Below are positions 1,216 to 48,749 of a stretch of DNA of 64,000 nucleotides, one piece after another (the first letter of the stretch is position 1; each line of letters starts with the position of its first letter). The stretch spans positions 40,672,001-40,736,000 of the forward strand of contig NC_086376.1 of assembly GCF_036588685.1 (NCBI RefSeq), given 5' to 3'. A program made the translations under genes and the position numbers. The DNA is from Mytilus trossulus (lineage: Eukaryota). The notes under the pieces are model-generated. The model saw nothing but the letters and a program-made list of their open reading frames with translations. It had not been told where the DNA came from and did no database searches.

Positions 1216-1865
1216 TTACAAACTTTGTCGTCTCCTACAACCATGGCATCCTTTTATGATCTTGGAACCGACTCTGTTCATTTGATGTGCAGCTACTTTT
1301 ATGGAAACAATGTAAAACTCCATGAAGACGTTAATACATACGGATACCAATGCTAAACCAACAAAAACATAGATAGATGTCACTATAAAATATTTCGTAT
1401 GGGCTGGTGTTATGTCGCCAAAGCCAATCGTACTCACGGATATAAAAGTAAAATAAAAGGCATCTAAATAGCTCCAATCTTCCCAACGTGTGTACATCAA
1501 TGCTCCGAGAAAAAGGTAAATGAATAAAATGATAACTGGTACAGCTAAAGGAAGCCTATTTTCTATTTCCTTTATTAATGTTTCATCCTTATCTTCCCAA
1601 ACAATTTCTATATCATTGTTTTCCTTTTCTGTATGTTCGGTGGAAAGGGCAACACCATTACGTTCCTTCTTAAAGGTTTCCCCATCAGCAGTTTGCACAT
1701 TCTTAGCATAAAATCGTTTTACTCCAAAATAGAAGAACTTAATGACTGTTGTTAATTTTTTACCAATTTCTGCTAAGACTCTGAAAGCTAGTGGAATTCC
1801 AAAAATTGCATAAAATATTGCAATTACTTTTCCAGTATCAGTCCTAGGGTAAATATCACCATAGC
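1216..1865 (-). CDS. K2P potassium channel gene 1, exon 2 (M2, M3, P2, M4); spliced product 338 aa
   Basis: Acceptor TTTACAG|GC TAT completes GYGD; YAIFGIPL; P2 STIGFGD; 367+650=1017 nt in frame. Confidence 0.93.
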
Positions 1866-2425
1866 CTGTAAATAAATATACGAGGTTTGATATGAGTTTA
1901 TTTTTTATTTTCACAAAATATTTTCAAAAATATGAATTGACTTGCATACAGACATGTTCATCCCTTGATTTCGACTACCTGTCTTTAAAATCAGTGCAAA
2001 AGGTATAGGCATTCATTTTGATATGAGGGATATGAAGATACACAGAAACGTTCAGTCAGATAGTTTGTTTAAAGACTGAAACTTTCTCGTTTAACATAAC
2101 CTTCTCTTTCCCTATGTTTCGGTTATAGTATTTATGTCTTTCTCCGACTTGAGGTTTCTTTTGTTGAACCATTTATATTTTGTTAACACCTTTTTTCAAA
2201 CTAGATAAATAAAAGAGGGACGAAAGATACCAGAAACACAGTCAAAATCATAAATCGAAAATAAACTGACAACGCCATGGCTAAAAATGAAAAACTTACA
2301 AACAGACAAACAATAGTACACATAGAATAATAAACGATGAATTGAAACAAGTTTTAAAGGTTCATAATCATAGATTGATCTTCATACGGGTGTCTTAACT
2401 CTAATGTTAATGAAATAAGACATAC

Positions 2426-2792
2426 CTATTGCTGTATAAATAGTTCCACAGAAAAACAATGCTTTCCAGAAATCCCATCTTTTTCCATGATTTTTTTCAA
2501 AGTTATCAGCATCAAATTTATTCATCAGAGTAACAATTTCATCTCTTAAATTTTCAAACTCCGAACTGTTCAAGGACACAGTTAAGTTCAATAACAGCTG
2601 AACCATATTCTTGTGCTTAGGTTCTTTTGCTAATAAAAGTTCGTCTTGATACGGTGTCTCTACGTGGACGAATATAACAGCTCCAGTAAAACTGTATACC
2701 ATAAGTAAAATAATTAAACCAGTGAAAGATTTTAAACCGTTGTAAAATTGTCCTATAACATTTTTCGCTTTCGAACGAAACCCTTTTGTCAT
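2426..2792 (-). CDS. K2P potassium channel gene 1, exon 1 (M1, cap, P1)
   Basis: ATG at 2792; M1 helix; WDFWKALFFCGTIYTAIG; donor ATAG|GTATGT at 2426/2425; 367 nt, phase 1. Confidence 0.92.
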
Positions 2793-5156: not shown

Positions 5157-5531
5157 TATTGAAGGTCTAAATTCTTACACATTGTCTTCTGCTTCCAAAA
5201 CGACATCCTTTCTTTACGGTAGATTTTACGACAAATTGAAGGTCTAAATTTATACACTTTGTCTTCTGCTTCAAAAAACGACAACCTTTCTTTACGGTTT
5301 ATTTTACGACAAATTGAAGGTCTAAATTTATACACTTTGTCTTCTGCTTAAAAAAACGACAACCTTTCTTTACGGTTGATTTTACGACAAATTGAAGGTC
5401 TAAATTTATACACTTTGTCGTCTGCTTTCACAAAGACAACATTTGTTTACGACAGATTGCAGGTCTAAATTCATACACTTTGTCTTCTGCTTCCACAGCG
5501 ACAACCTTTCTTTACGGTAGATGTTACGACA
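5157..5531. repeat. Tandem repeat (5 copies, 65-78 bp) of the last codons and stop of K2P gene 2
   Basis: G(A/C)AGGTCTAAATT units start at 5161, 5238, 5316, 5394 and 5459. Confidence 0.88.
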
Positions 5532-6120
5532 TCCATTTGATGAATTGCTAGTTTAATGGACATTATATAAAAGTCAATTAAAACATTTATACACATTGAC
5601 ACCAATGCTAAACCTATAAAAACATAAATTGAAGACACTATAAAGAATTTTGTATGCGCTGGTGTAATGTCTCCAAAGCCGATAGTGCTAACTGATATAA
5701 AAACAAAGTAAAAAGCGTCTAGAAAGCCCCAATCTTCCCACAACGTATACATTATGGCTCCAAGAAATATGTAGATGACTAGAATAATTATTGGCACTGC
5801 TATAGGAAGTTTGTTTTCGATTTCTTTTATTATTTTTTCTTCCTTATTTTCTTGTTCTATTTTTATTTCGCTTTTGTCTATTTCTGATAGTTCGACGTTT
5901 TCAACGTGATCTGCTTGTTTATCTCGAACGGTGTATCTGTTGTTATTTCGCCCATTGCATTTAAAACATTTTTTCACAAGCAAATAGAAAAACTTGAGAA
6001 TTATCATCAACTTTTTTCCAAGCACAGCTAAAACTTTCATGGCGAGTGGAATTCCAAATACAGCATAAAATATAGCAGCAACTTTTCCAGCATCTGTTTT
6101 TGGATAGATGTTACCATAAC
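5471..6120 (-). CDS. K2P potassium channel gene 2, exon 2; spliced product 338 aa
   Basis: Acceptor TTTCAG|GT TAT GGT AAC (GYGN); P2 STIGFGD; 650 nt; ends RRQSV*. Confidence 0.93.
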
Positions 6121-6758
6121 CTGAAATAATAATTTTTGAAAATTATAAAATATAACTACATTTCATTGTCATTATATTGATATAGATAAAGATAAGATAT
6201 ATTGTTTTACCGGTTAAGGGCCCAAAATGGACTTGAAGGCCGTACTTTAACCTATAATGGTTTACTTTTTAAATTGTTATTTGGATGGAGAGTTGTCTCA
6301 TTGGCACTCACACCACATCTTCCTATATCTAATTAGGGAGTTTTAGAGAATACCAGTATAAGAAAAAAGAACAATTCAATATGATTAGCATTGATATATA
6401 ATATATATACATCTTGTACACAACATATATACAACTACAATACAAATATAGATATGTTGTTATATATAATTGTTTTAGGATTGCCAGGTGAAGTAGTTAA
6501 TCATTCTTCTCTAATTCTATGGAAATTTATCCCTTTCCGAACCCATTGTATAAAAAAATATAATCAACGTGTGGTTTCTGGTGATCTCAAAAGATCATTG
6601 GATGATTTCAAGGGTCATGACCTTTTAAGCTAACTGAATGAATCAAAATTTGATAACAGGTGTTAATGAAATTGACAACTTCGTGCAATGTGAAAGGCAC
6701 TCGAAGGGGATTTTCGGTCAACAAAAAAAGAAAATGTCTTTTTAATCATTAGAGAAAC

Positions 6759-6921
6759 AGATTCTTACATAGTTACTCGTGGATTATCGGATTTATCCAA
6801 TCTCGATAGTTAAATTATAAATTTTAAAGTCCTCGCCGAGGCGGCTCGGACTTTAAAATTGATAATTTAACTATCTCGATTGGATAAATCCGATAATCCA
6901 CTGGTGTCAATGTAAGAATCT
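6759..6921. mobile_element. Hairpin MITE (~163 bp) in intron of gene 2
   Basis: Near-perfect palindrome AGATTCTTACAT...ATGTAAGAATCT with ~75-bp arms. Confidence 0.8.
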
Positions 6922-7919
6922 ATATATAACGGTGCTAAACTGAATATGCTAGTGAACAGAAAATCAATCCAAAAGAAATGTAAAAGAAAATTCAATTACA
7001 TCCTAATGACATATTCGGAAATTAATTTGAAAATGCATCAGGTGTATGACATTTACAAGATGCTGCAAATCATTGTTTTTAATTCTGTTTTTGGACATTT
7101 TTATCTCAGTAGAAACATTCCACACGTGACACCAAGCCATGGTCGATTTTTATTTTAGATAAAAATGTCCTCCGCCGGTTTAAAATTTTCTTTAAAATAC
7201 ATGTTAAATTGAACTACATGTATTTAATTTAATTAAAAACTTGTTTCAGCAGCAAAGTGTACTGCTTATTTCAAATGTCAAATTATATAAAACTCTTCTC
7301 AAGTACTAGTACATAGTTTATATTAGAAATCTCTCTCAAAATGTTTCAATAACTTTTAAATTGTGCCTGTACTTTCTAAGATCATTTACAAAGCTCTTAA
7401 ATTGAAACCCTGGCTGAACAAATCTTACAGAAGTGAAATTTGTGTTAAAATTTCATTTGAACTTCTATTTTTGTTGTACATACATAGTGTAAATGCCAAA
7501 TGGGGGTTCGAGCATTCTAACTATTGTGTGCTTTCACAAGCTTCGAATTTGAATTTTTAAACGAAATATTGGTCTGGAAAAGATTTTGAAAATTATAAGA
7601 AACAAATGAAGTAATTAGCATATCCTTTTTATATTGATACATTTATGTATTGTACCAAATACACACAATCACTTATTATACTTTCATATATAAACAAAAA
7701 CATGTTGCCATCTATTGTTTTTATAGAAATAAGTGTGGCACAGATGTCGCTTACTCGATGACCTGAAACTTGAAATTTCATTCAAACATTTTATGCCTAG
7801 GTGGAAACAAGATTTTAAACGGTGTAGTAATTATTCATCGGTACACTTGATATCTTTCCTGTGGGCGGTTGAGTTGACAAGATATTTTACAACTTATGTA
7901 CTTAAAATGTTATACTTAC

Positions 7920-8286
7920 CTATTGTTGTGTAGATAGTGGCACAGAAAAACAAAGCTTTCCAGAAATCCCACGTGCTCTCAGAATTCCCCTCCATATCTC
8001 CAAAGCCATACTGATTTATCAGATCGAAGGTTTTATTTCTTAGTATTTCAAAGTCAGAGTTGTTTAACGCCACTGTTACGTTTGTTAAGAGTAGAATAAG
8101 TTCATCATGCTCTGGTTTTTCTTTGATTACAATTTTCTGTTCATACGGCGCTTCCAATTCAACAAATATTACGGCTCCAATTATATTGTAAAGCACCAAT
8201 AAAATAATCAAACCAGTCAAAGATTTCAAACCTTTATAAAGTTTTCGAAATATGGTAGTAACTTTTGAACAAAATCCTTCAGCCAT
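7920..8286 (-). CDS. K2P potassium channel gene 2, exon 1
   Basis: ATG at 8286; WDFWKALFFCATIYTTIG; donor ATAG|GTAAGT; 367 nt, same length as gene 1 exon 1. Confidence 0.93.
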
Positions 8287-9323: not shown

Positions 9324-9985
9324 TCATAAACAATAGTATAATGCTACAAGTACAAATGTAACATACTCCAGACCTAATAGAATACATAGGAAGTCTTTAT
9401 ATTCACTCAGTTTACAAAATTTCAGTACTTTTAGTATTTTCATTTCTTTCCGTGTGAGGTCGCATATTACCGTACTGAATTGCAGCATTGACGCAATCAA
9501 GCCAATAGGTAAATAAATACACGAGCCGATGTTATATTTATCGTCTGGTGGTATAATGTCGCCAAACCCAATGGTACTTAGCGATATAATCACCAAATAA
9601 ACAGCATCCATGTAGGTCACGTGTTCCCATGAGGAATATATAGATCCTCCTATCAAAATGTAAACAAATAAAAAAGCTACCGATGCCAAAAAGGGAATTA
9701 TGGAATTATGATTGTCTGTACGTTCTATTCTCATATTTGAACCAGTTTCAATACTTTCGGCATCAAGATTCAAATTGATGTTGTCCCCTTTTTGTGTGAC
9801 ATGTCCGTATTTGAGATAGGGTGGCTGCAATCGATTTCGTACCGTAAGATATATGAAACTGACAAAGGCGGCAAGTCTTTTACCAATGCCGGCTATGACA
9901 ATCATGGTAAGTGGTATTCCTACTGATGAATAAACCATAACAAAAATCTTTCCACCAGTTGTAGTTGGAGTAATATGGCCATATC
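9324..9985 (-). CDS. K2P potassium channel gene 3, exon 2; spliced product 315 aa
   Basis: Acceptor TTGTAG|GA TAT GGC CAT (GYGH); YSSVGIPL; P2 STIGFGD; 286+662=948 nt in frame. Confidence 0.88.
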
Positions 9986-10909
9986 CTACAATGGAATATG
10001 TTTTTTTTGTTTAAATGAAATTCAGTGTATGTAATAAATAACGAAAACAATAATTATAATTTCTTTTCTATCGGAAAGTAAAATAACATTATAGAAATTG
10101 GCGAATTAAACCTGGTTTTGTAACTAGCTAAACCTCTCACTTGTATGACAGTCGCATGAAATTCTATTATATTGACAACGATGTGCGAACACATCAAACA
10201 GACATTATCATAGATAAAAATTGTCGAAATTTCTTATATAGACAACGAATTATTCCTATGATAAAACTTTATGATATTTTGTACCTCTTAGCTTGAACAT
10301 CTATTATTTACCACAACTGTTAAAATGAATGAAAATAAGCATAATAGAAAATGTTGACGACAACGTTAGAATTATATCAATGACAGAATTCGGTGAATAA
10401 ATGAATTCATAGATTGTTGATTGATTTTCGCCCAGTGGCGAATATCACATGTATATTTCAGACAAACACAAATTAAAAAAAATTCAATCTGCAAAATTTG
10501 AGAGTTTCATCGATAGTTATCGAAAAAGAAATGGTTACAAAGGTAGATTAGAGGTAAAAGAACGGCCTTCAATAAGGAGCATAAAACAATCCCGAAACAG
10601 GAAAACCAATGGTGTAATCAATATAAAAAGCGAGAAATAGAACCTGAGATCAACCCTAGTTTTGATGGGGATCGTGTTGTTTAGTTTTTAGTTTTCTATG
10701 TTTTGTCCCGTGTGCTTAAATTTGTCTGTTTGTCTTTTTCTTTTTTAACTATGGCGTTGTCAGTTTATTTTTTTATCTATGAGTTTGAATGTTCTTTGGT
10801 ATCTTTCGCCCCTCTATTGCAATGACTTCGGAATAAGGGAATGTAGGATAAAGATAGAAATTGCAACTAGCAACTTCCATACTAACCACCATAGTGAAAA
10901 TAGACATAC

Positions 10910-11195
10910 CTATTGTTGTAAGTGTTGTGACAATGAAGAATAGAGATTCCCAGTAGTGCCAGGGATTAGTGTCCTCATCCTGAATTGGAAACTCATTTCC
11001 AGAGATATTATTACTACTCAGCGAACTGTACACTTCTAAATCTCCATATTCTCGGTAAACCTCATATGTATCTCCAATACGTAGATAGATAGCGGCACCA
11101 ATGATAATATATACACATAATGTAAAGACAACAAAAGGAAACGACTTGGCGATATGGAGAACTCTTTTCGGATTTAGCTTGAACTCACACGCCAT
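10910..11195 (-). CDS. K2P potassium channel gene 3, exon 1 (short cap)
   Basis: ATG at 11195; M1 YIIIGAAIY; WHYWESLFFIVTTLTTIG; donor ATAG|GTATGT; 286 nt. Confidence 0.88.
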
Positions 11196-13949: not shown

Positions 13950-14385
13950 AGAAAGTAAAAAACACAAAAATACCGAACTCCGAGGAAAATTCAAAAAGGA
14001 AAATCAAAAATCAAAAGGCAAAATCAAAAGTCCAAACACATCAAACGAATGGGTAACAACTGTCATATTCCTGACTTGGTACAGGCATTTTCTAATGTAG
14101 AAAATGGTGGATTGAACCTGGTTTTATAGCTAGCTAAACCTCTCACTTATATGACAGTCGCATCAAATTCCATTAAATTGTCAACGATGCATGAACAAAA
14201 CAAACATACTCAAAGAGTAAAAATGTCAAAAATAGGGGTACAACAGTCAATATTGTGTTATCATCTTGATATCTCTACATAAACAACAAATGTAACAAAG
14301 AAGCACAAAAAGGCATACATTAATTTAACATTCTCATTTTATTTTTCTTATACGGCTGAATTTATCTATGTAAAGTCTACCCAGA
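13950..14385. repeat. Second interspersed repeat family (unclassified)
   Basis: CCTGACTTGGTACAGGCATTTTC..GGTGGATTGAACCTGG..CTAAACCTCTCAC; copies at ~10105-10200 and inverted at ~62270-62445. Confidence 0.65.
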
Positions 14386-14415
14386 ATACACACACTTTTT
14401 GATTTAAAACATATT

Positions 14416-15005
14416 TTAATTTTGATACTGCTCAACATTTGCATTATTTTCTTTTCGTTCTAAATGTTCAGTAGATTGAGATTTCACATTATTGTATTGG
14501 AGTGCCGCATAAACACACATCGACAATATTGTCAATCCAATAAGAATATAGATGACCGATCCAATATAATATGTACTATCAGATGGTAGAGTTGTACGGG
14601 CACCAATGGTACTAAGTAATGAAAATACCATATATACAGCATCAACGTAGCTCACGTTTGTAAAAGACGAATAGATTACGCTTCCCATTAGAATATAAAC
14701 TACTAAAACCGCCATTGATATTATAAGAGGAATAATGGATCCCTCATAATCTTTCAACACTGTATTTTCATATGTTTCGGTTTCCATTAAGATATTCATT
14801 TTGTCATCTTTTTGTAAACTGCGTCTTTTTCGTGCAATTCGCTCCTGGGATCGATTCCGCATAAGAAGACACACACGTGTGACAAAGGTGGATAGTCTCT
14901 TGCCAAAGTCGGTAATGATTAGAGCAGTTAGTGGTATGCCTATTGCTGAATAGGTCATAACAAATACTTTTCCTGGTATAGTATGAGGAGTAATATGACC
15001 ATATC
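14416..15005 (-). CDS. Divergent K2P channel gene 4, exon 2; spliced product 270 aa; non-canonical P2 STIGART
   Basis: Acceptor TTGTAG|GA TAT GGT CAT (GYGH); YSAIGIPL; 223+590=813 nt in frame. Confidence 0.85.
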
Positions 15006-16109
15006 CTACAATTAAAAAAGTGTATATTTTATTTACCTTCTTTTTCGGTGTCTGAAACTTTTACGACAAAGACAACTGTTTGATTTATACCATCTTAAAA
15101 AAGGATGGATTGAAATGATATATGTCTAGTTATATAATTAAAAGCAACCGCGTGAAGACCAAGATGTACATTTTATACGTTGTTAGTAGGCGAGTGGTTA
15201 ATTTCCATTCACGGTTAGTAGGGGTGTAACGTTACGTCCCTTTGTAAAAACAACACAGTGTTGATGAAAATCTGAAAGGTTTCATCAGACGAAGATATTC
15301 AGTGATGATGAAAGATTGAAATATGTAAAATTCATATAACACACTAAAAAAGCTTACAAGTTATTTTTGTTGACATTTTCTTTTTGTACAGACCAATGTA
15401 TGAGTAAAGTAGGTCCTTTAATTTTGAAAACTTAATCACTTTTATAAGCCACGTAGTCTTCAATATCACATTTTAGATAGTCGGTAAAAGAAATGCGTAA
15501 CATATAGCCCACACTGAGTTACTAATATATTTAGTGCAAACGATCTAACCCTCCGAATATCGAAACATAATTAATGACACATTTATTCACAAATGCACAA
15601 CAGAAGCTTTCATTATTGATTGATATGGTATTTCAAATGTATTGTAGTGTACTAAGTATATGGAAAGGAAACGAGCGCTGTACGGAGATTGATTCTGACT
15701 CTTAGGATTCTGATTCTGAAACTGGTGAAGATGCCGAAACGAAAGACAGTTACCGACGACTGGTCTCCTGCCTATAAAACAGAACAAACTCACAGACTGA
15801 TTATCAATGTAATCAATATGTAATCACTTGTATGAAATTGAACTTAATTGCACTGCTTAACTTGATTATTGGGCGTCATAATTGACAATAAAAAACTTTT
15901 TAATTGTATCTGTATTTGGTAGAGCGAATACAATTAAACGATGACTTTCGGTACTATTGATTTTTATTTTCAGTTTAATAAATCAAATCAAATCAAATAT
16001 TTTATTTTAATGAGTTCAAAAGACTGACTCCGACTGAAGACTTAACTTCAGTCGACACATTATAAAAATAGAAAATGTTTACAGGGTGCCACAAAATTAA
16101 GATTTTTAC

Positions 16110-16810
16110 TTATGTTCTTAATTCACGATGTTCAAACGAACATAACATATTTATGTGCTAACTTGCTCTATTTTTCTTGTACAACTCTGCTTCTAATTTC
16201 TGTTCTTAACTAACTCATATTGTATATATGTATATAAATAAGACAAGAATAGTTCTGATACTAACAGGCACGGTGACCATTTCGATTTATTCATCATAAT
16301 TCACAATCTACTAGTAATCAATTTTCTATAAATGTCTTTTCATTTCATTTCATCAAACAATAATGTCCTAAACATCTCTGCGTAAACACTTCATCATATC
16401 AAATCTATAAAATAAACATTACAAATCAGTATACTATATATACACATTTAACAATACACAAAAAAAAAAATTTGTCTGCAAGTCGAGTGGTCACCGCCCA
16501 GCCTTCGATAAACTTAAAAACCCGTTTTCTATCTATTATATACCTTACTAATTTGCATAACTAGTTTATTCTATTGTTAAACAATAGACTAAAATAGATC
16601 CGAAAATTCATACGCATACCGCACATAAATTTATTTATGTTCTTAATTCACGATGTTCAAACGAACATAACATATTTATGTGCTAACTTGCTCTATTTTT
16701 CTTGTACAACTCTGCTTCTAATTTCTGTTCTTAACTAACTCATATTGTATATATGTATATAAATAAGACAAGAATAGTTCTGATACTAACAGGCACGGTG
16801 ACCATTTCGA
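16110..16810. repeat. DIRS 3' terminal block: B2 (16110-16285), spacer, A2 (16467-16634), B1 (16635-16810)
   Basis: 176-bp B copies and 168-bp A copy; A2 abuts B1, giving the circle junction. Confidence 0.92.
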
Positions 16811-16838
16811 CGTACAAAGAAAGCAGTCAGTGAAAATG

Positions 16839-17862
16839 TTATAAACCTAAATTCTTAGAAACTGATAATCGTTTTTCTAAACTATCTGATACGTAACCAT
16901 CTTTAGCTAAATCAGATTTCCATCTTCCATGTATTTTAAAAAGTCTATCTGGTATATCATGTTTAGCGGCCGCTGTGGCACCGCCTGCTCTGAAACTGTG
17001 TAAACCAAATTTGTTTACATTCAAACCGATTTGTGATAAGGCCTCTTTGACTAACTCTCTTGCTCGAGTATACGAAATTTTTACATTTTTACTTCTCAAT
17101 ATAAAAGAATTAGTTTTCTTTAAAAAAGACAATGCACGAAATATAAAGAATTCAGAATTATTCTCAATCTTAGCTAAAACTAGATAACTTTGCAAAAGCT
17201 TTACAGGACAGTAAGAACTACATTGTATCTAATCTAGAAATGACAACATTATTACCATGTCTATAACAATCTGTTTTGCTCTTACGAATAAAAATGTTGA
17301 CATGCGAAGTATGAAAAACTATGTCTTTAGCTGTGATGTTGCATAACTCATTGAAACGCAAAAATCCTGTATACATCAACGAACACATTAACAATAAACG
17401 CACTTCTTTTAGTGAATTACGATTATGATATTTATCAAACAGTTTAATCATTGAATTCGAGTCAACTGGTTCTTTTTTCTTTTTCGGACGAGATAGTATT
17501 CTCTTAGCACCTTCTAGTATACTCTTGACTAGTTCAGATTCGCATGGATCAGTTACGCCAGCAATACGATGCGCCCATTTTATGCTATAAAATGCTGTAT
17601 CTACTGAACTAAAACCTTCGGATGACTCTATCAAATGTTGCAAGTATAAACCCACATAAAGTTTATTACACGGAAGTACTGAAGTTATCTCTTTGTATTT
17701 TTGTGTCCACTTTAGAAAACGTTTGAAACCTCCAATATATTTTGTAACAGTTGTCTTGGCCCTCGAATCTAAGACAGTTGCATTTAGATTTGAGTAAAGT
17801 AATCTGAGTTCTGTGTGCTTAACCAAACTTAACTGTGACCAGAATCCAGTCGAAAAAATGTT
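16839..17862 (-). pseudogene. DIRS/PAT tyrosine recombinase, frameshifted near 17219-17227
   Basis: GFLRFNE, RKSKTD, HSFR, HGRW, GY catalytic motifs split over two frames; removing 7 nt restores ISRLD-SSYCPV. Confidence 0.87.
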
Positions 17863-18092
17863 CTAAAAATAGATATACAGTAATTACAATCTTTTTGTAA
17901 AAAGATAAAAATTCTATTACATAACATATTTACCTGAATCAAAGCATATCAATCAGGTCCAGTGACCATACAGTATTACTAAAAGATTTAGTCCAGTGAC
18001 CAAAGAGTATAACGTCCAGTGACTTCCAACACACACATATTACATCAATATTCATATAGTAAAAACAATTCTGTAAATAAAAAGACTTAATA

Positions 18093-20444
18093 TTAACAAT
18101 ATGAAGCGTCTAACAAAACAGCTAATACAGATCCTTTGAAATCTCCTCTCACAAAAACAGAGTTCAAATTATTTCCAGATTCGAAAATTCTCTCTGGTTC
18201 GTTGAACTGAAGCACTTCAATTATGTACTTTCTATATTTTAGACCAGTGTCAAAAATCAACGGCCAAAATGGCGATGAAGGCCAATTCGGAACTATCAAA
18301 GTTCCTTTAGCTTTACATTTTACTAAATGATTTATAACTCTGCTAACCTCAGTTACTGGAGGTACTAGCAAATTGTTCCCACCGGACCAGTCGCACGTGA
18401 AAGCGTCGACGCATAAAGAACCTGGGTTCCAATACAAAGAATTAAACTTTTGTAATTTCGTATTTTCAAAGCTAGCAAACCTATCCACTGAAAATGGACC
18501 CCATAAATCATTCAAGAATGTGAAAAATTCATCTGAAATACGCCAGTCGTCAATATCGACAATTCTACTTAGCATGTCTGCTTGTTCATTCTGTTCCCTT
18601 GGAATCCAGTTAACAAAAATAGTAATATCATTTTTACGACAACAATCGTATATTGATAAAGCTAAAGACTGTAATTCTGGTACTTTACTACCCTTGTGAA
18701 CTATTGTTACAGCGTTTTGATTATCTGTATAAAACGATACCGTGCAATGTTTAAGCAAACGTGCAAAACTTAATATAGACAACTCTATTGCTTTGACTTC
18801 CCTCCAAGTGGAGCTCTTTAATTTCTCATCGTCAGACCAAGATTTATGCATAATCTGTTTTAGATTATCAATATATCCAGCAGCCCCTGTATTGCTTGCA
18901 TCTGTAAATATGTAAAATTCAGAATCCAATCCTAACAAAGAAACTGGTTCTAACTTACAAATGCTATCTCTCCAAAATATCAGATCTCTGATACAAGCGT
19001 TACAATGATTTATATTAATAGATTGGTTCCAATCTTGTCTTAAATTTATAACTTCAAACAAACCTCTCGACATGATCTGTGTAATGTGACCTAAAGCAGG
19101 CGTAAAAGAAATGATTTTACCAGCTGCTTTTGCTAACAATCTTACTTTCACTTTGCAGGAACTGTTAAGTATAACATTAACTAAGTCAATTAAATCATTC
19201 TTTTTTCTATCTGGTATATCTAGTTTACATATGTCTAAATTCCATATAAAACCTAACCACTCTAATGTTTGTGTTGGTGTCCAGTGACATTTATCTCTGT
19301 TTGGTACGAACCCCGATGATATAAGATCTGACTTTACTATATCAGAATGCATTTTACATGTGTTTTCATTATCGGCTAAACCGAACCCGTCGTCTAAATA
19401 AACAACGACTTTGATTCCTTTCTTTCGCCAATGTTTTACTAAAGGTCTAACTACTTTAGTAAAGATATATCCGCTAGATTTCAAACCAAAAGGAAGTACA
19501 GTAAAAACGAAAAACTTTGTTACACCTCCTAATTTCCAGGAGAAACCTAAATATTTCTGATGTTCGTTAAAAATATCAATATGATGATATCCTGATTTCT
19601 TATCAAAAACGAATCCAAAACAATTAGAAGATAAATACTGTTTAACTACTTTCCAATCTTCAAATTTAATCTTGCTATCAACTACCTGTTTGTTTACATG
19701 TCGTAAATCTAAAATTAACCTGTGTTTATTTTTCGCAGTCGAGACGGTCAAAGGATTAACCACGTGCGGTCTACTCGATACCTCTCGTATCAAGCCCCCT
19801 TTCATTAAATCTAAAATAGCTTTCGAGACAAATTCATTGTTATCAAATGCTGATTTGTTATTTCTTAAGAATATTTCTTCAGGCTCGTTAAGCAAAAGAA
19901 TTTTGTAACCATCTGTAATAACATTCAAAATGAAATCTGAAGCATTAATTTGTTTCCAAAAGTTAATAGATTTTTTCAAACGACCTTTAACATAAATATC
20001 AGAATTACAATTTTCATATTCATAAAATGTTTCAACAATATCATAATCTTGTACCTTGAAAATGTCACTGTTATGATCTTTAAGAAGAAGATCCTCTGGA
20101 AGGTCCTGTCCTTGCCTTTCCCTTCCTGCAGTCTCTTGCCCAGTGCCCTTGCATGCCACAGTTATAACAGACGTCTGAGGTCTTGAAGCTATTTTGGTTG
20201 CCGAAACTTTGGCCGCTGGCGGCCAAGCCCCCTCGAAAGGGCTGCAGGCGAAATGTAGCATCAGAACCACCTGTACCATTATGTGCCATTTGAGCTGTTG
20301 AACCAGATGCTTCTGCCGGACGCTTTCTACTGCTGCGTTTATCTGTTTTCTCTGCTTTGATCTTTTTAACTGCCCTGTTATCTGCGGCGCGTATTCTTTT
20401 CTCGTCTTCCGAGTCACTGGCCACTTCATCTGAAAGGTATTCAT
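18093..20444 (-). CDS. pol: DIRS/PAT reverse transcriptase - RNase H - adenine methyltransferase-like polyprotein
   Basis: RLILDLR, GYHHI, LPFGL, YLDD; RNase H FTDAS/REVKAI/TDNQ/ADMLSR; C-terminal DRFAS...DAF...VPP...VPNWP. True start uncertain (overlaps gag). Confidence 0.9.
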   Translation of the reverse strand: MNTFQMKWPVTRKTRKEYAPQITGQLKRSKQRKQINAAVESVRQKHLVQQLKWHIMVQVVLMLHFACSPFEGAWPPAAKVSATKIASRPQTSVITVACKGTGQETAGRERQGQDLPEDLLLKDHNSDIFKVQDYDIVETFYEYENCNSDIYVKGRLKKSINFWKQINASDFILNVITDGYKILLLNEPEEIFLRNNKSAFDNNEFVSKAILDLMKGGLIREVSSRPHVVNPLTVSTAKNKHRLILDLRHVNKQVVDSKIKFEDWKVVKQYLSSNCFGFVFDKKSGYHHIDIFNEHQKYLGFSWKLGGVTKFFVFTVLPFGLKSSGYIFTKVVRPLVKHWRKKGIKVVVYLDDGFGLADNENTCKMHSDIVKSDLISSGFVPNRDKCHWTPTQTLEWLGFIWNLDICKLDIPDRKKNDLIDLVNVILNSSCKVKVRLLAKAAGKIISFTPALGHITQIMSRGLFEVINLRQDWNQSININHCNACIRDLIFWRDSICKLEPVSLLGLDSEFYIFTDASNTGAAGYIDNLKQIMHKSWSDDEKLKSSTWREVKAIELSILSFARLLKHCTVSFYTDNQNAVTIVHKGSKVPELQSLALSIYDCCRKNDITIFVNWIPREQNEQADMLSRIVDIDDWRISDEFFTFLNDLWGPFSVDRFASFENTKLQKFNSLYWNPGSLCVDAFTCDWSGGNNLLVPPVTEVSRVINHLVKCKAKGTLIVPNWPSSPFWPLIFDTGLKYRKYIIEVLQFNEPERIFESGNNLNSVFVRGDFKGSVLAVLLDASYC

Positions 20445-20901
20445 TCACCGTTCTCCAACCACCCTCGGACTTATCCGCGATTCTAATTAATTTATTTCTC
20501 TTCTTGAGCTGGACAGACGAATCTTCTAAAACCCTAACTGCCTTTTTAGGTCGATTCTTCTCAATGTAGCCTATTGCCGTGCTTATACTGTCTTGAATGT
20601 CAGAGTTAAGCTCAAATTGTAACTGATTCCCCTTAAATTTAAAGGTATTCTCTGCCTTCTTTGCTCTCTTTACTAACGTCTCTGTAGTATCGGAGAAATT
20701 CTTCTCTATACCGGAAAGTTTATTATTGAAATAAGTTGTCATCAAAGAAAACAAATCTGCGTTTGAAACTTCAGGTGCCCTATCTTGCTCTGAATTACCT
20801 TTTCTCTTTGTTGGTTCAGCAGCAGAACGTAAAGCTTCAATTGACTTGTCAGGAGACTTGGTTAATTCTCTATCGTCGAGGTCTAGCTCTGAATCGGACA
20901 T
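20080..20901 (-). CDS. gag: DIRS/PAT gag-like protein with CCHC zinc knuckle
   Basis: 273 aa ORF; CYNCGMQGHWARDC; IRIADKSEGGWRTVNEY motif; ATG 4 nt after repeat A1. Confidence 0.88.
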   Translation of the reverse strand: MSDSELDLDDRELTKSPDKSIEALRSAAEPTKRKGNSEQDRAPEVSNADLFSLMTTYFNNKLSGIEKNFSDTTETLVKRAKKAENTFKFKGNQLQFELNSDIQDSISTAIGYIEKNRPKKAVRVLEDSSVQLKKRNKLIRIADKSEGGWRTVNEYLSDEVASDSEDEKRIRAADNRAVKKIKAEKTDKRSSRKRPAEASGSTAQMAHNGTGGSDATFRLQPFRGGLAASGQSFGNQNSFKTSDVCYNCGMQGHWARDCRKGKARTGPSRGSSS

Positions 20902-20905
20902 CTTG

Positions 20906-21073
20906 AAAATTTGTCTGCAAGTCGAGTGGTCACCGCCCAGCCTTCGATAAACTTAAAAACCCGTTTTCTATCTATTATATACCTTACTAATTTGCATAAC
21001 TAGTTTATTCTATTGTTAAACAATAGACTAAAATAGATCCGAAAATTCATACGCATACCGCACATAAATTTAT
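20906..21073. repeat. DIRS split direct repeat A1 (168 bp; copy A2 at 16467-16634)
   Basis: Direct comparison by eye, no mismatches seen. Confidence 0.92.
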
Positions 21074-21669
21074 ATACATATGAAATAATAAAAATGATAA
21101 ATTTTACTTACATACAATAACCACTTTTAAAATACCTAATATTTACGCTATAAACATTAACGGATTAAAAAAAATTATTAGAAATGAAATATAGATGTGA
21201 AGCATTCATGAACATAATCCTTTGTAGAGTTTAGATTAAAAAGTGACCAAAAAAGTAAAAAAAAAAAATGTGGGCATATAGAATACAGAGTTATGCCCCT
21301 CCTCCCTCCAGACTCCATTAAACTTCCTGGTTTGTAAAATATACAGGAAGTTAATAATAGAAATCAAGGTCATTATTTGTTATTAATGAGATTCAATAAT
21401 ATATAACATTTGGCTTGAATTTAAATGATTGTTAATAATAAAATATTTATTTTCGAATTGTCCATGATAATTGCTCTATTTTTCACGAGATTATTTCAAA
21501 TAGTTGCTACATGAATACATGCATGTTGATCGGTTCTTATTACGATTGATTGATCATAGTTGTTTTACATCGCATCAGCGTGAAAAGGCTATAACACACG
21601 GCGATATTAACCCCATGTATTTGAAATTGAAATTTATTGCACATATATACATACACTGGTGATACATAC

Positions 21670-21892
21670 CTATTGTTGTTATCATTGCAACAAAGAAGAA
21701 AAGCGTTTCCCAGTAATTCAACGTATTATCTTCCTCACATTGATTTTCGTTGCTATTTCTTCTATGATCTTCAATGTTCATGTAAACAGCAGCACTCGTG
21801 AAAGTATACACACATAGTATAAAGACAATACCTGGTGGTGACTTGGCGATACTCAGAAGTCGTTTTATATATACAGTGACCTCAAACTTCAT
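21670..21892 (-). CDS. Divergent K2P channel gene 4, exon 1 (almost no cap)
   Basis: ATG at 21892; LNYWETLFFFVAMITTIG; donor ATAG|GTATGT; 223 nt; similar to gene 3 exon 1. Confidence 0.85.
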
Positions 21893-39006: not shown

Positions 39007-39621
39007 CTACTTTAGTACAAGTAATCTTAATGTACAGTTCTAAAGATGCATATGTAATATACATCTGTAAAGCTATATATAAACTGTTCAGCTGTAAAGC
39101 TGTATATCAACTGTTCAGCTGTAAAGCTGTATATAAACTGTACATCTGTTAAGCTGTATATAAACTGTACAGCTGTAAAGCTGTATATCAACTGTACATT
39201 TTTAAAGCCGTATATAAACTGCAAATCTGTAAAAATGTACATCAACTGCACATTTTTAAATCTGTGTATAAGCTAAACATACAGATTCTAGCACTGCATC
39301 TTGTGTGATACAATATCTATCTACAGTTTATATACAGTTTTACAAATGCACAGTTTATACACAGTTTTACAAATGTACAGTTTATATATACAGCTTTACA
39401 GCTGTACAGTTGATATACAGCTTTACAGCTGTACAGTTGATATACAGCTTTACAGATGTACAATTTATATACAGCTTTACAAATGTACAATTTATATACA
39501 GTTTTACAGCTAAACAGTTTATGTACAGCTTTACAGATGTACATTTGATATACAGCTTTACAGATGTACATTTGATATTCAGCTTTAGAACTGTACATCT
39601 AGATTACTTGTACTAAAGTAG
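39007..39621. repeat. Foldback element: inverted arms built from 30-bp tandem repeats
   Basis: 21-bp terminal inverted repeat CTACTTTAGTACAAGTAATCT; CTGTAAAGCTGTATATAAACTG arrays in opposite orientations. Confidence 0.85.
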
Positions 39622-43064: not shown

Positions 43065-44059
43065 CTACGGCTTTGGTGTGTTTTCTTTTGATCTGCTCTC
43101 AGATGAATCTAAAGAATGTTTTTTTGCCCTCTTTAATTCGTTTTGAATATTAGTTTCAATGTTTTTCTTTACTTCTGATATTTTACCCTTCGCACTGGTC
43201 CCTGCTTTCGACACTTTGTCTTTTGCTTTATTCATTTCTTTGCCGACAGAGGCCATCTTTTCTTTTCCCGCCTCAACAACTCGTTCTCTAGCTTTATTCA
43301 TATGATCTTTCGCTTTGTCTATTTGAACAGTGAAGAATTCGATTCCAACATTAACGCACATGGAAACTAAGGAAAGACCCATGAATAAATATATTGCGGA
43401 GATGAGAAAATATTTCGGATGCTCAGGTACTACATCCCCAAATCCAATAGTACTTATAGATATAAATACAAAATATATGCAATCCAAGAAATCCCATGAT
43501 TCCCAAAATTTGTACATGATTGCACCAAGAAAAATATAAATCAGTAATATTATGCAAGCAATTGATATTGGCAAGTTGAAAGAGTCATCAATCTCTATGT
43601 CATACATAACTTTTACGCGATCTGTTGAAGACAAAGTCGACTGGACATCAGGTGATTCATCTAAAGAATCGTCACTTCCGGTTTTTGATTTTAAACTCGA
43701 ATTTGGAGAAGGACTTAATCCAGATTGTTTTTTTACAAACACTATTGACTCTTCGCTCTTGCTTTTTTTCTTTGTAGATTGGTCTATTTCGTTACTACAT
43801 GTTCCATTTTCTGCATTCTGAACGCTCTGTTTATTACTTTTTCTACTGCTCAGGCGACTTCGGACTTGTCTAATTACTTTTTTGCGGAAGGTTCCAGTGT
43901 AGTAGTATCGACGTGCACGTGCATACATCCATTTAAGAAGGACAGTAAATCGTCTACCAACTTCTGCCAATACTAGCAACGCGAGAGGTATGCCCAATAC
44001 AGCATAAACCATGGCTATAAATTTGCCAATTCCAGTAAGCGGTACTATGTTTCCATAAC
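43065..44059 (-). CDS. K2P potassium channel gene 5, exon 2; spliced product 486 aa
   Basis: Acceptor TTACAG|GT TAT GGA AAC (GYGN); YAVLGIPL; long Ser/basic M2-M3 loop; P2 STIGFGD; 466+995=1461 nt in frame. Confidence 0.95.
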
Positions 44060-45107
44060 CTGTAAGAAGAAGATTATGCATATTAAATAAACGTATGACA
44101 AAAAAGGAAAGGACTAAAACTGTTAACGTAAATATTTTGTGTGTGCGTTTCGGCAAAACTGATGAATTTCGAATTGTGGTCTTTTAAAAATGTACGTCAA
44201 CATCATTATCTCTTTTAAGCCCAGCTTAATTAATTGGACAGGTCAAGGTTTCTATAGTGATTTTAAAGGTTCTTAAAGAACCGTTACACATTTTCCTTCT
44301 GTTTTTGGCCATAAAGATGTTGAATTATAATAATATAATGGTGCAATCCATTTTTTTGTGTAGAAAGATTAAATTTCATGCTTATGCAATGCTTTGAAAG
44401 CAAATTAATGCATAATATTTCTTATTTTTAATGCCGATTGGATGCCTAATAAATGCTCACTAGCTTGCTAGAATCAAGCTATCAGCCACACTTAAGGTTT
44501 GTCAATGTATTTAAAAACTGACTGTTAGTTGAGTGGCTGCTAGGTTGATTCTAGCCATCAGTGTTATTGACTAATACATTTGGGGAAAATGTCATTTTAA
44601 GATAAATAAGAGTATTACCTTAAATTTCTTTTCATTTAACCGAAATACCACAGTTCTCAACAACTCTGTTTGTACATTCAATTTTTTATGACTTCATTTA
44701 AACACTTGATTGAACAAAGAGTTTAGAAATACTTATTGCACATGTGCTTATGATTTTTGTGATCCAATTCAATGAAACAAAAAAAGTTGACATTAAGCGA
44801 AAAATAGACTTTTTCGTTTTGTTTCATAACTGCATAAGTTAAATTTTGTCGCATGACCATATATATGTTTTGAACTGTTATACAACGCTGACATTTCTAG
44901 TAACGTGAACTAGTTTGTGAAGTCTAGCACCGTTGGCCCGATGTTTCTTTTTTTTTTTATTCAAGCCATCTATAAACTGTAAAGATTGTCATTTCGGGAC
45001 GTTGTATACATGTAGCTTACTATGCGGTATGCATTATGCTTATTGTTGAAGGCCTAACGATGACCTACAGCTGTTAGTTTCTACAAAGTTCTATGATGAA
45101 GAGTTGT

Positions 45108-45289
45108 AATTAAACTCAATGACATCATAGATACCAGGACTAAATTTTGTATATACGCCAGACGCGAGTTTCTTCTACAAAAGACTCATTAGTGACTCGA
45201 ATCCAAAAAAGTTAAAAAGGCCAAATAAAGTACGAAGTTGAAGAGCATTGAGGACCAACATTACAAAAAGTTTTGCCAAATACAGCTTA
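45108..45289 (-). mobile_element. Truncated retrozyme with 13-bp TSD, in intron of K2P gene 5
   Basis: GATGAAGAGTTGT at 45095-45107 and 45290-45302; mutated core CUAAUGA. Confidence 0.78.
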
Positions 45290-48283
45290 GATGAAGAGTT
45301 GTCTTATTGCCAATCATACTATTTATTTTCATATGAGAATAACCCTGTTTATTTGGCAATAAACAACATACAAAGATGTACAACACAAAAATGTATATTA
45401 TTACTGGAAAGTCAAGATGCCACCATGACATCATAGTGCCCAGTACAGATACGTTAGATCTATATGTTACCCACATCGATCTAAACACAAACAGAACTTT
45501 ATTGACGTCTATCTGCAGATAACTGCCGTCCTTGGAGGATTCTCAGACAGCTGTCAGGTGCTATAGAGTTGTCTGTATGATGCGTGTTGTTGTTATTTTT
45601 TCTGCACCATCGGTAGCAATAAGAATTAAACGTTCCATTAAACACTAATATTTTTTGTTATTTTCTAACTGCAAATAGCCAAATCTAATTAGAGAGATCA
45701 ATAACTTAAAATAACATTTAAGCGCTAACTGATATATAGAGGTTAATGACCTCTAGCTATAGAGTTCATCATCATTATCTTATCTCCGACAGATATATTC
45801 ATCCTCTATTGTAGATGATTAAACGGTTTCTGTTATTTTTTATACGAAAAGGATGAATGTTATCAAACATTACTGTGGAATAATATATAAGTAATGTTTT
45901 CCTTCAAACTGACACTATTTAGAGAATTTTTTGTTTTTAATATTGTCTTATCTTTTTCACAAATTCAAACTTTATTCTTGAATATCGAAACCATGGAATC
46001 ATTATAATACAAATTAAATGACTTCATTTTTTCTTTTTAAAATAGTTTTTATTCGGATTTGCACTTGTGTCAGGGTGTAGTTAAAGATATAGTTAAAGTT
46101 AAGATTTGTTCTTGTAAAAAAAGTCAAAGATATTTACGATGCGTACAAAAAGAAAAGTCAAAAAGTGTAAACTTAAACAAAATCCATGTCTAATGGGGTA
46201 AAATTCTCGCCACCCCTATTGTATTTCTCTTTTTGTCGTTTCCAAATTTCCGGTTGGAGAATTGTGTGTATGCTTGTTTAGTATTAATCCATATTCTTTA
46301 CAATTTTATACGCGAATCTTGAGTCATAACAGTAAAAGATAAGCGATATTTAAAATCATAAGTCGAAAAGAAACTGTCAAAGTCGTGGCAAACAACGAAA
46401 AACAACGATGAGATCATCAGTACACAGAACACAACAAAGAAAACTAAAACCCAAGCAACACGAACCCCACCAAACCCGTGGGTGATTTATTATGCTCTAG
46501 AAGGGTACTAAGCAGATTCAGCACCTTTTCTTGTCGCTCATGTAGGTACGAATCCAATGAAAAGTCTTATTCGGTAGGTAACATTCGAGGAAAAGTGGGA
46601 TGCATTGATGTGTCCGATCATTTTGAGATATTACATCTTGTTATCATGGAAAGTTACGGAAATTAAAACGAATAGGGAGATGTATCTGTTGTCTGTGAAT
46701 TAATCAGTAACCTAAGATTTTGGATGGAATACATGTACTTTTTATTACCAATCTGGAAACAGTACAATCTTCTTTTGTACCCCAACAATCAGTACGCTGA
46801 GAATTCCCATGGAATGAATGTTACGTTTTATCGCCAATTTAAAAAGCAATGTGTCTATGCAGGTGCGAAGTACTTGTCTCCTAACAACCAGAGCCATTAG
46901 AATTCCCATGGAATACATGTTTCGTTTAATCGCAAATCCAAAAATCAATATGTCTATACAGGTGCAATGTATTACAGTACCATTACAACACTTGCATTGT
47001 TTGCACCAGATAAGAAACACCAATCCGAATTATTTATCGACTATATCTATCAGATAATAGTTTCGAGTATGTTTTATTAGGTAATAACGACCTAATTGAT
47101 ACTTATTACCTAGCAATATACGTTACAGATGCGATATTTTCATGTGGCAGGGAAAAGGTAAAGAGAAACCTCAAACAACTATTCCCTAGATTATTAATTG
47201 ATATATATCCCTACAGTGTTAACACAACACTTATTAATTATATTCTCATCAGGAGCATTTGTAATTAGCATACAAAGCAGCCTGGCACTATCTAAATGTC
47301 AAGTGTACATGACTGTCAAATATCATCAGCGATTTATTATCGGTTCGTTATATATACATCCCTTCTTTCTTAATAAATTTCACAAACAAAAGTGAAGAGA
47401 CCTATGTGTTTTGTTAACTAATAAAAAGAAGCCCCCCCCCCCCAAATTGAACCTTTGGTTTCCTCTAAATCAATTTGCAATGATGATAGCGGCAAGCTCG
47501 AGTGCCATGAAATATTGTACTTAGAAGATGATATCCTCTTTTTCAATCATTATAAAGATAAGCTTCTATCTTTCGATCTAAATTTCTATTTATATGCAAT
47601 TAAATCATATAAAATATGTTCCTGCTTTATAAATTTATAAACCTCTTGAAATTATAATGTCAAACTATTGATTTCAAAGAACAAATTTAGAAACTCCAAC
47701 GTTACCAGACATTGTTATCTATTCAAATGAAAATTTTGGAAAACTCGTTATTATACTTAATGTGACAATGTACGGGACTTACTCAGCATACGAGACATTT
47801 ATGCATTGTTCTACTGAAAGAATAAATAAGTATGAACATACAAAAGGGACGCTCAAAACTTAATTCGAAGAAAAGACGGACAATGACCAAAACTAAAAAA
47901 GAAAAGACAAATAACAATCGACTTCTAAAACAGAACAAAACTGTAAACATCATCTTCAAAAGCGTTAATTTTACTGTATTTTATATATAGTTAACGTTTT
48001 ATATTCTAAATAAAACCGTAAAAATTTAACTGCACCTGAGCATTTCAATAAGTCATGTCTAATCAGTGTTACTCGAGGACAAAACATTTAAAATCCCAAA
48101 ACCTGAAATCAACTTTGATGAGCTATTAAAATCAAGGACACAATAGTCAAACCAGAACAGGGAATCAGAATTGTGTATAATGGGATCGATTTCTATTATA
48201 AAGTTACCTCCTTCCCTGTAAGTAGTAATGCAACCATAAGGAACTGAAACTTTCAATGAATGCACACATCCATTGATACTCAC

Positions 48284-48749
48284 CAATAGTTGTATAAATA
48301 GTCCCACAGAAGAACAAGGCGCTCCAGAAAGTCCACACAGTGGCTGGACCAGCAACTGTTCCACGACTGCGGACCTCTGATTCATATTGCATTAATAACT
48401 TTCTAGTTTGATTAATCCACGTGTCATTGTATGTTGTATAATTCACCCAGAAATTTTTTGCTTCCACGTAAAAAAATCTAATATAATTTTCTCTGGTCAT
48501 TTTCATATCGTGCTTCGCTTCTAACTCATTTTCAGATTCAATACTTTGGAATAGTAATGCGCCTAAGATACTGTATATAACTAACAATATAATTAATCCA
48601 CCAATGGATTTACAAACACGGTAGAACTTTATAATCGCATCTTTTATCCTACTTAATATCATTTGCATGTTAAATTGCTTTTTAACTCCGAGTTCGTCAT
48701 TTTGTTGTTCAAATTTTCCGTTCTCTTCATCTCCGTTATTATTCTCCAT
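48284..48749 (-). CDS. K2P potassium channel gene 5 (TWK/KCNK18-like), exon 1
   Basis: ATG at 48749; YSILGALLFQSIE; WTFWSALFFCGTIYTTIG; donor ATTG|GTGAGT; 466 nt. Confidence 0.94.

What the first reader, a model, noticed from the sequence alone, without database searches (positions are those of the whole stretch)
14578..14625. Gene 4 second pore loop reads STIGART: the K+ signature is replaced in an otherwise intact gene
The sequence is AGT ACC ATT GGT GCC CGT ACA, so GFGD becomes GART by several substitutions. P1 (TTIGYGH), four TM helices, splice sites and frame are all preserved. An Arg at the outer Gly position should abolish normal K+ conduction. Inference: a silent or dominant-negative regulatory subunit, or a channel with altered selectivity.
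Basis: partly seen in the sequence, partly recalled or inferred. Interest (0 to 1): 0.7.

Follow-up and report, generated by a model that had tools for sequence, protein, structure and literature searches.

The report
Mussel potassium channel lacking second filter
A duplicated mussel potassium-channel gene has lost the second of its two ion-selecting loops in every Mytilus copy found while keeping the first loop and its membrane helices, so it likely cannot carry potassium alone and may instead modify its sister channels, though broken copies suggest it may be dispensable.

Summary
The minus strand at 14613-14593 reads STIGART, the frame is open, the intron is GT-AG, and two public runs show the same filter codons. 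The gene is a Mytilus K2P (KCNK18/TWK-like) tandem paralog, sister to gene 3.

The loss is genus-wide, but the arginine is not the conserved feature. The second filter reads GART, GARA, GGRA, GVGA or SVSA in 8 orthologous domains, against G[FLY]GD in 404 of 404 others. Pore domain 2 evolves like a free loop (15 changes in 22 sites). Pore domain 1 (1 in 22; p=5e-4) and the membrane helices stay constrained. The gene is not "otherwise intact": the cap is largely deleted and several family-invariant residues are gone.

The same Gly-to-Arg change in human TASK-1 gives no current (preprint passage), so the homodimer likely conducts no K+. Best guess: a silent or modifying partner subunit (0.42). 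Slow decay is a close rival (0.33): an M. galloprovincialis model is frameshifted, one allele comparison gives pN/pS near 1, and gene 3 is frameshifted here. Splicing was not shown. New variant of a known kind; interest 0.42.

The parts
14593..14613 (-). Second selectivity filter of gene 4, STIGART (residues 206-212); family T-I-G-[FLY]-G-D
   Evidence: same codons in runs X11 and X7
14614..14649 (-). Pore helix 2 (residues 194-205); Y199 and F202 kept, C-terminal I-S-L changed to S-L-L
   Evidence: position 14621 differs in both covering runs (Ser203 to Leu)
14416..15005 (-). Gene 4 exon 2: rest of SF1 (GYGH), M2, M3, pore domain 2, M4, stop
   Evidence: contigs of run X11 cover 14432-14941
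21670..21892 (-). Gene 4 exon 1: M1, shortened cap (23-24 residues shorter than M. coruscus copies), pore helix 1, TTIG of SF1
15006..21669 (-). GT-AG intron, 6664 bases, splitting the first Gly codon of GYG
16105..21076 (-). DIRS/Ngaro-type retrotransposon inside the intron, same orientation as the gene: zinc-knuckle ORF, RT/RNaseH ORF, tyrosine recombinase interrupted near 17221; two pairs of split direct repeats 99.4% alike (recent insertion, inferred)
   Evidence: the class name is from recalled element anatomy
9413..11195 (-). Gene 3, sister paralog with canonical filters; out of frame in M4 between 9495 and 9494 (about 13 bases missing relative to P0011, inferred from the protein)
5471..8286 (-). 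Gene 2, canonical K2P paralog (TTIGYGN / STIGFGD)
1216..2792 (-). Gene 1, K2P paralog (TAIGYGD / STIGFGD)
43065..48749 (-). Gene 5, the slow-evolving member with orthologs across molluscs

Best explanation
Gene 4 is an old Mytilus K2P duplicate whose second pore domain has been released from constraint while its first pore domain and four membrane helices remain conserved; the trossulus form likely passes no K+ as a homodimer and most likely acts as a silent, modifying partner that would pair with a canonical neighbour and damp or detune its current. Shown: the filter sequences, the sister relation to gene 3, the asymmetry between pore domains, the shortened cap. Inferred order of loss, by single-base steps on the tree: F to V, D to A and I to T before the M. 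coruscus split (GVGA); then V to A/G, G to R, pore-helix S to L and the cap deletion in the blue-mussel complex. Inferred: no homodimer current, from TASK-1 G203R. Inferred: in a heterodimer three of the four filter loops would be intact, which would explain why SF1 is still kept. Untested: expression of a spliced mRNA, assembly, the partner, and the sign of the effect. The gene is probably non-essential, since null-looking copies exist.
For: Four full-length orthologs: pore domain 1 has 1 change in 22 sites, pore domain 2 has 15 in 22 (p=5e-4). Pore domain 2 matches the loop rate (0.68 vs 0.61 per site) and exceeds the helix rate (0.20; p=6e-4). Controls, pore domain 1/2 changes: gene 1 0/0, gene 2 0/1, gene 3 1/1, gene 5 0/2. 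Against neutral simulation at equal amino-acid distance, changes in the membrane helices are conservative: mean BLOSUM +1.15 to +1.36 vs about -0.4 for trossulus-coruscus (0 of 1000 simulations as high under each of four mutation models), and +1.0 for trossulus-edulis (P 0.011-0.018). Within the blue-mussel complex pore domain 1 has 0 of 22 variable sites vs 33 of the other 177 (p=0.014). The stem is long (0.70 vs 0.24 for gene 3), and M. coruscus has four tandem models. TASK-1 G203R, G203D and W78A gave no current, and T89 supports the filter; these map to R211, L58 and A69 here (offset of 20, motif position). Pore-dead K2P subunits assemble with and inhibit relatives (PMC9520024; PMC6376074). 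Run X11, with only 60 million contig letters, covers exon 2 at depth 4-9 and not the intron 15006-15221: a weak hint of transcription.
Against: A pure poison subunit would not need an intact SF1 (a G-to-E SF1 mutant is itself dominant negative), so the SF1 conservation does not single out this mechanism. SF1 straddles the splice junction, so part of its conservation may be splicing constraint. The cap, which may matter for dimerisation (PMC4906011), is largely gone. The M. galloprovincialis model is out of frame at pore helix 2. One ENA sequence has GYG to EYG in SF1 (P0010). The second allele in X11 differs by 16 listed non-synonymous and 4 listed synonymous changes, plus 1 unlisted, over 253 and 77 sites: omega about 1.0-1.3, with omega 0.2 rejected (p<0.001). 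The closest possible partner, gene 3, is frameshifted in this assembly. No splice joint was seen. Orthologs come from gene predictions, so broken ones are under-counted.
Confidence: 0.42

Rival explanations
1. Dispensable duplicate in slow decay. The ancestral GVGA form had some function; in the blue-mussel complex the Arg, the cap deletion and further changes mark loss of that function, and the residual conservation only reflects selection against a misfolded membrane protein while the gene is still weakly expressed.
For: Frameshifted M. galloprovincialis model. pN/pS near 1 in one allele pair over about 330 bases. Fastest-evolving gene of the cluster: trossulus-edulis identity 89.6% vs 97.5% (gene 5) and 95.1% (gene 1); trossulus-coruscus 76-77% vs 93%, 91% and 88%. 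Two of four M. coruscus models look partial (P0003, P0007). No gene 4 model turned up for M. californianus, or for the RefSeq M. edulis set, in searches that found their neighbours. Recent retrotransposon in the intron. Mytilus has many dispensable genes (PMC7653742, abstract and passages).
Against: Conservative helix changes and an invariant pore domain 1 persist inside the blue-mussel complex. The sharp asymmetry between the two pore domains is not expected from uniform decay. The X11 stretch excludes pore domain 1 and includes the free M2-M3 loop. The frameshift is inferred from a protein model only and could be an assembly error. Absence from a protein database is not absence from a genome.
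Confidence: 0.33
2. Conducting channel with altered selectivity. The inner half of SF2 (S-T-I-G) is kept and the outer half is free, so the pore would keep its inner binding sites and lose the outer ones, giving a weakly selective cation leak like NaK or HCN. Most plausible for the M. coruscus GVGA form.
For: S206, T207 and I208 show 0 changes and G209 1 change, while positions 210-214 each changed. SF1 is invariant in the four full-length orthologs. M. coruscus GVGA keeps both glycines. Loss of the two outer sites goes with Na+ permeation in NaK and HCN, and a natural K2P filter variant, UNC-58, is Na+ permeable (PMC11513965 passages).
Against: Three unchanged positions at the loop rate is not significant (about p=0.13, my arithmetic from the rate). 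The outer residues vary freely (F, V, A, G; G, R, S) instead of settling on a new motif. G203R in TASK-1 gave no current at all. Two Arg side chains at the outer mouth would repel cations (inference).
Confidence: 0.18
3. Reversion to a one-pore channel: with the cap gone and pore domain 2 unused, four subunits would build a K+ filter from four copies of the intact first loop.
For: Explains both the intact SF1 and the free SF2, and the lost cap.
Against: M3, M4, Y199, F202 and P215 remain conserved as in a normal K2P fold. Pore domain 2 was already degenerate while M. coruscus still had a 62-63 residue M1-SF1 linker. W58 and T69 behind SF1 are lost. I know no precedent in animal K2Ps (recalled, not searched).
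Confidence: 0.04
4. Assembly or sequencing artefact.
For: None found; one nearby base (14621) differs from the assembly in both covering runs.
Against: The filter codons are the same in runs X11 and X7, and degenerate filters occur in 8 orthologous protein domains from several species.
Confidence: 0.01

Closest known systems
Mollusc KCNK18/TWK-18-like K2P channels (gene 5 clade; genes 1-3 of this cluster)
   Same: Four-helix, two-pore-domain layout, SF1 TTIGYGH, same intron position within GYG, nested in the mytilid tandem expansion as sister to gene 3.
   Different: SF2 outer half replaced, pore helix 2 evolving freely, cap shortened, several invariant residues lost.
Silent vertebrate K2Ps: KCNK7 (TWIK-3), KCNK12, KCNK15
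   Same: Retained K2P genes with no proven current alone (PMC8616229 passages). KCNK7's SF2 is GLE, also lacking the outer Gly (recalled; searches did not show the motif).
   Different: Not orthologous: gene 4 arises inside a mytilid cluster. Three filter residues are replaced, not one, and they vary among close species. Silence here is predicted, not measured.
TASK-1 disease and engineered pore mutants (G203R, G203D, G97R; TALK1 G110E)
   Same: Same outer-Gly position of SF2 changed to Arg; no current in oocytes. Pore-dead subunits act as dominant negatives.
   Different: Those are single mutations in otherwise normal channels; here the change is natural, shared by the blue-mussel sequences seen, and sits on older losses.
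C. elegans UNC-58 and other atypical-filter K2Ps
   Same: Atypical filter arising in a lineage-specific K2P expansion (PMC11513965).
   Different: UNC-58 changes one inner residue of SF1 and keeps GYG; gene 4 keeps SF1 and loses the outer half of SF2.

Membership tests
K2P (KCNK) channel family | Four membrane helices and two pore domains in one chain | tested here: met
   Pfam Ion_trans_2, two stretches in exon 2; predicted model pLDDT 86 with the helix pattern; all listed Foldseek hits are K2Ps
K2P (KCNK) channel family | SF1 signature TxGYG | tested here: met
   TTIGYGH across the splice junction
K2P (KCNK) channel family | SF2 signature TxG[FLY]GD | tested here: not met
   STIGART; 404 of 404 non-lineage second domains are canonical
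K2P (KCNK) channel family | Helical extracellular cap between M1 and pore helix 1 | tested here: not met
   39 residues from G33 to T72 vs at least 70 in 59 family members; no cap helices in the model
K2P (KCNK) channel family | Dimer that carries a K+-selective leak current | not testable with these tools
   needs biochemistry and electrophysiology
Mytilid KCNK18/TWK-like tandem cluster (descent) | Groups with genes 1-3 and keeps synteny | tested here: met
   gene 4 rows form one group (SH-aLRT 100), sister to gene 3 (99); quick tree, 45 rows, long-branch warning printed; M. coruscus accession order g1, g2, g3, g4 x4, g5
Silent regulatory K2P subunits (KCNK7/12/15-like behaviour) | No current alone; changes a partner's current | not testable with these tools
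   only analogy to TASK-1 G203R
Pseudogene | Stop or frameshift in this copy | tested here: not met
   open 270-codon frame
Pseudogene | Neutral evolution | tested here: inconclusive
   helices and pore domain 1 constrained; one allele pair omega near 1; one ortholog model frameshifted
Pseudogene | No spliced transcript | tested here: inconclusive
   exon 2 covered in two runs guessed to be RNA, no joint seen; exon 1 was not in the stretch laid
Na+-permeable atypical K2P (UNC-58, TWIK-1 type) | Changed inner filter residue with both glycines kept | tested here: not met
   inner S-T-I-G normal, outer Gly is Arg; M. coruscus GVGA keeps both glycines

The most novel reading that the evidence does not exclude
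A natural, genus-wide 'one-and-a-half-pore' K2P: selection keeps one filter loop and frees the other, giving a subunit that turns K+ leak channels into weakly selective or silenced heterodimers. The Mytilus series GFGD, GVGA, SVSA, GARA, GART would then be a ready-made ladder for asking how much of SF2 a K2P needs to conduct and select.
Probability: 0.25. Interest if true: 0.7.

Novelty: new variant of a known kind. Interest (0 to 1): 0.42.

Why it matters
K2P channels build one filter from two different loops, and the functional effect of natural filter variants cannot be predicted from sequence (PMC11513965). This lineage shows one loop released and the other kept within a single genus, including a change that silences human TASK-1 in pulmonary hypertension mutants. 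If expressed, it offers natural test cases for filter asymmetry and for silent-subunit regulation in an invertebrate. If it is decaying, it is an ordinary example of birth-and-death in a mussel gene cluster.

Tried and rejected
Compensating frameshifts or a micro-inversion at the filter: rejected; codon-by-codon the loop has gene 3's length and each change is one or two base steps.

Conserved Arg as a new selectivity motif: rejected; M. coruscus has G or S there.

Homodimer fold job: no answer, score 0.24 under the mark of 0.32, alignment not used, controls not folded. It is no evidence either way.

The metagenome scan returned 2 loci at 20-21% identity from 187 candidate stretches, no Mytilus copy. 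So no codon-level dN/dS across species.

Run laying: X5 and X17 covered only flanking repeat; uncovered parts prove nothing because a filter drops records. The stretch laid (14250-15300) did not include exon 1, so a splice joint could not be bridged.

The 'no stop codon' simulation (P 0.02-0.09 for trossulus-coruscus, 0.2-0.36 for trossulus-edulis) is discounted, because only open predicted proteins reach the databases.

The careful tree did not finish; the quick tree is used.

The 40 kb downstream of the window showed no further K2P motif pair. The own-genome search found no second gene 4 copy among 29 candidates.

The protein atlas gave only generic K2P clusters.

Paper searches for this gene or for degenerate mollusc K2P filters found nothing relevant; subscription papers are not covered. 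A divergence date for M. coruscus was not found in the passages read, so none is given. Earlier scan findings: none in three look-ups. No supplements were read.

Full report
Observation. The minus strand at 14613-14593 reads STIGART where the four neighbouring paralogs read STIGFGD. Exon 1 (21892-21670) and exon 2 (15005-14416) are joined by a 6664-base GT-AG intron and translate exactly to P0001, a 270-residue model labelled Mytilus trossulus. Of four public runs laid on 14250-15300, two (X11, X7) cover the filter codons and list no difference there; two covered only flanking repeat. The feature is a real allele.

How unusual. A profile scan of all 428 proteins fetched found 412 second-pore domains: 404 read G[FLY]GD and the 8 exceptions are all gene 4 orthologs. 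The set was gathered by similarity and holds near-copies, so it overstates independence.

Orthologs. M. edulis P0008 reads GGRA, three unnamed sequences (P0002, P0009, P0010) GARA, and M. coruscus tandem models GVGA (P0003, P0005, P0007) and SVSA (P0004). Accession order in M. coruscus matches the window's gene order, with four gene 4 models. A quick tree of 45 rows places gene 4 as one group, sister to gene 3, with a canonical unnamed outgroup (P0133); stems are 0.70 for gene 4 and 0.24 for gene 3 (no bootstrap, long-branch warning). So the filter loss predates the M. coruscus split and the Arg is a later step. No relative with a degenerate filter appeared outside Mytilus in three word-indexed searches and one exhaustive profile search.

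Not otherwise intact. Against 59 family members, gene 4 has lost G33, E45, W58, T69, W189 and E190 as well as F210, G211 and D212. The distance from M1 to SF1 is 39 residues, against 62-63 in M. coruscus copies, 60-62 in gene 3 and at least 70 in the family. The predicted monomer (pLDDT 86, pTM 0.77) has the K2P helices but no cap helices, and its listed structural matches are all K2Ps. The intron holds a DIRS/Ngaro-type element with 99.4% identical repeats (class name recalled).

Selection. Among four full-length orthologs, pore domain 1 shows 1 parsimony change in 22 sites and pore domain 2 shows 15 (p=5e-4). The latter equals the loop rate (0.68 vs 0.61) and exceeds the helix rate (0.20). 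Genes 1, 2, 3 and 5 show 0, 1, 1 and 2 changes in pore domain 2. Neutral simulations matched for amino-acid distance give radical helix changes (mean BLOSUM about -0.4), while the real ones are conservative (+1.0 to +1.4). Within trossulus, edulis and the in-frame part of galloprovincialis, pore domain 1 has 0 of 22 variable sites against 33 of 177 elsewhere (p=0.014). SF1 spans the splice junction, which may account for part of this.

Signs of decay. The M. galloprovincialis model P0376 starts as gene 4 and switches at pore helix 2 to the frame that the window gives one base over; this is inferred from the protein, without DNA. P0010 has EYG in SF1. A second allele in run X11 differs by 16 non-synonymous and 4 synonymous listed changes (1 more unlisted) over 253 and 77 sites, omega about 1.0-1.3. 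That stretch lacks pore domain 1, and its contigs may not be one haplotype. Gene 4 is the fastest gene of the cluster. Two M. coruscus models look partial. No M. californianus or RefSeq M. edulis gene 4 model was retrieved though neighbours were. Gene 3 is itself out of frame in M4 in this assembly. Mytilus carries many dispensable genes (PMC7653742, abstract and passages).

Expression. X11 holds only 60 million contig letters yet covers 14432-14941 at depth 4-9 and none of 15006-15221; X7 covers 14503-14762. Both are only guessed to be RNA. No joint was seen, and exon 1 was not in the stretch. Transcription is plausible; splicing is unshown.

Mechanism. In human TASK-1 the outer Gly of SF2 is G203. 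G203R, G203D, G97R and W78A produced no current, and T89 helps stabilise the filter (10.1101/2025.04.23.650279, passages). Gene 4 has Arg, Leu and Ala at the G203, W78 and T89 positions. A homodimer of the trossulus form is therefore unlikely to carry K+ (inference). Pore-dead K2P subunits still assemble and suppress partners (PMC9520024 and PMC6376074, passages). The kept helices fit a subunit that still folds and pairs; the kept SF1 fits a heterodimer in which three of four loops remain in use. I put this modifier reading at 0.42, slow decay at 0.33, a weakly selective cation leak at 0.18 (best for GVGA; NaK, HCN and UNC-58 precedents in PMC11513965, abstract and passages), a one-pore tetramer at 0.04 and artefact at 0.01.

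Comparison and novelty. By descent it is a K2P of the mytilid KCNK18/TWK-like cluster. It fails two defining features of a functional K2P subunit (SF2 signature, cap), so I do not file it as a working K+ channel. Silent K2Ps (PMC8616229, passages) and atypical-filter K2Ps are known, so this is a new variant of a known kind. Two searches found no paper on this gene or on degenerate mollusc K2P filters; subscription journals and supplements were not seen. The cap's role is taken from PMC4906011 (passages); PMC9628169 (passages) gave no usable date.

Verdict. Observation confirmed; interpretation partly supported. The interesting fact is the one-sided release of pore domain 2 across a genus, not the arginine itself. 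Interest 0.42.

Noticed in passing
window 2435 region, minus strand (gene 1 exon 1 end): Gene 1's first filter reads TAIGYGD: the signature Thr is Ala in all 5 Mytilus sequences seen, with 0 changes in either pore domain. A conserved filter variant in a well-constrained gene, arguably a better candidate for altered gating or selectivity than gene 4.
   Followed up: partly
window 9494-9495, minus strand: Gene 3 goes out of frame in M4 (about 13 bases missing relative to P0011); the database model fuses it to gene 2 (P0392). Null allele or assembly error, not checked in reads.
   Followed up: partly
window 16105-21076, minus strand: Near-complete DIRS/Ngaro-type retrotransposon in the gene 4 intron; repeats 21076-20906 / 16637-16467 and 16810-16630 / 16285-16105 are 99.4% alike; the recombinase frame is interrupted near 17221.
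   Followed up: partly
window about 23500-25600, plus strand: Fragmented ORFs that look like a degraded non-LTR retroelement about 1.6 kb upstream of the gene 4 start codon (identity by eye, not scanned).
   Followed up: no
window 14621: The assembly has Ser203 where both covering runs and M. edulis P0008 have Leu: a rare allele or an assembly error next to the filter.
   Followed up: partly
window 9327-11195 (gene 3) and orthologs: Gene 3 also has a short, divergent cap (60-62 residues, no conserved Glu after M1), so cap erosion began before the gene 3/4 split.
   Followed up: partly
P0231 (unnamed protein): An unrelated K2P representative with first filter TLIGSAH, another degenerate filter.
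   Followed up: no
window 41768-42302 and 39030-39613: Tandem-repeat-like stretches giving long repetitive reading frames on both strands.
   Followed up: no
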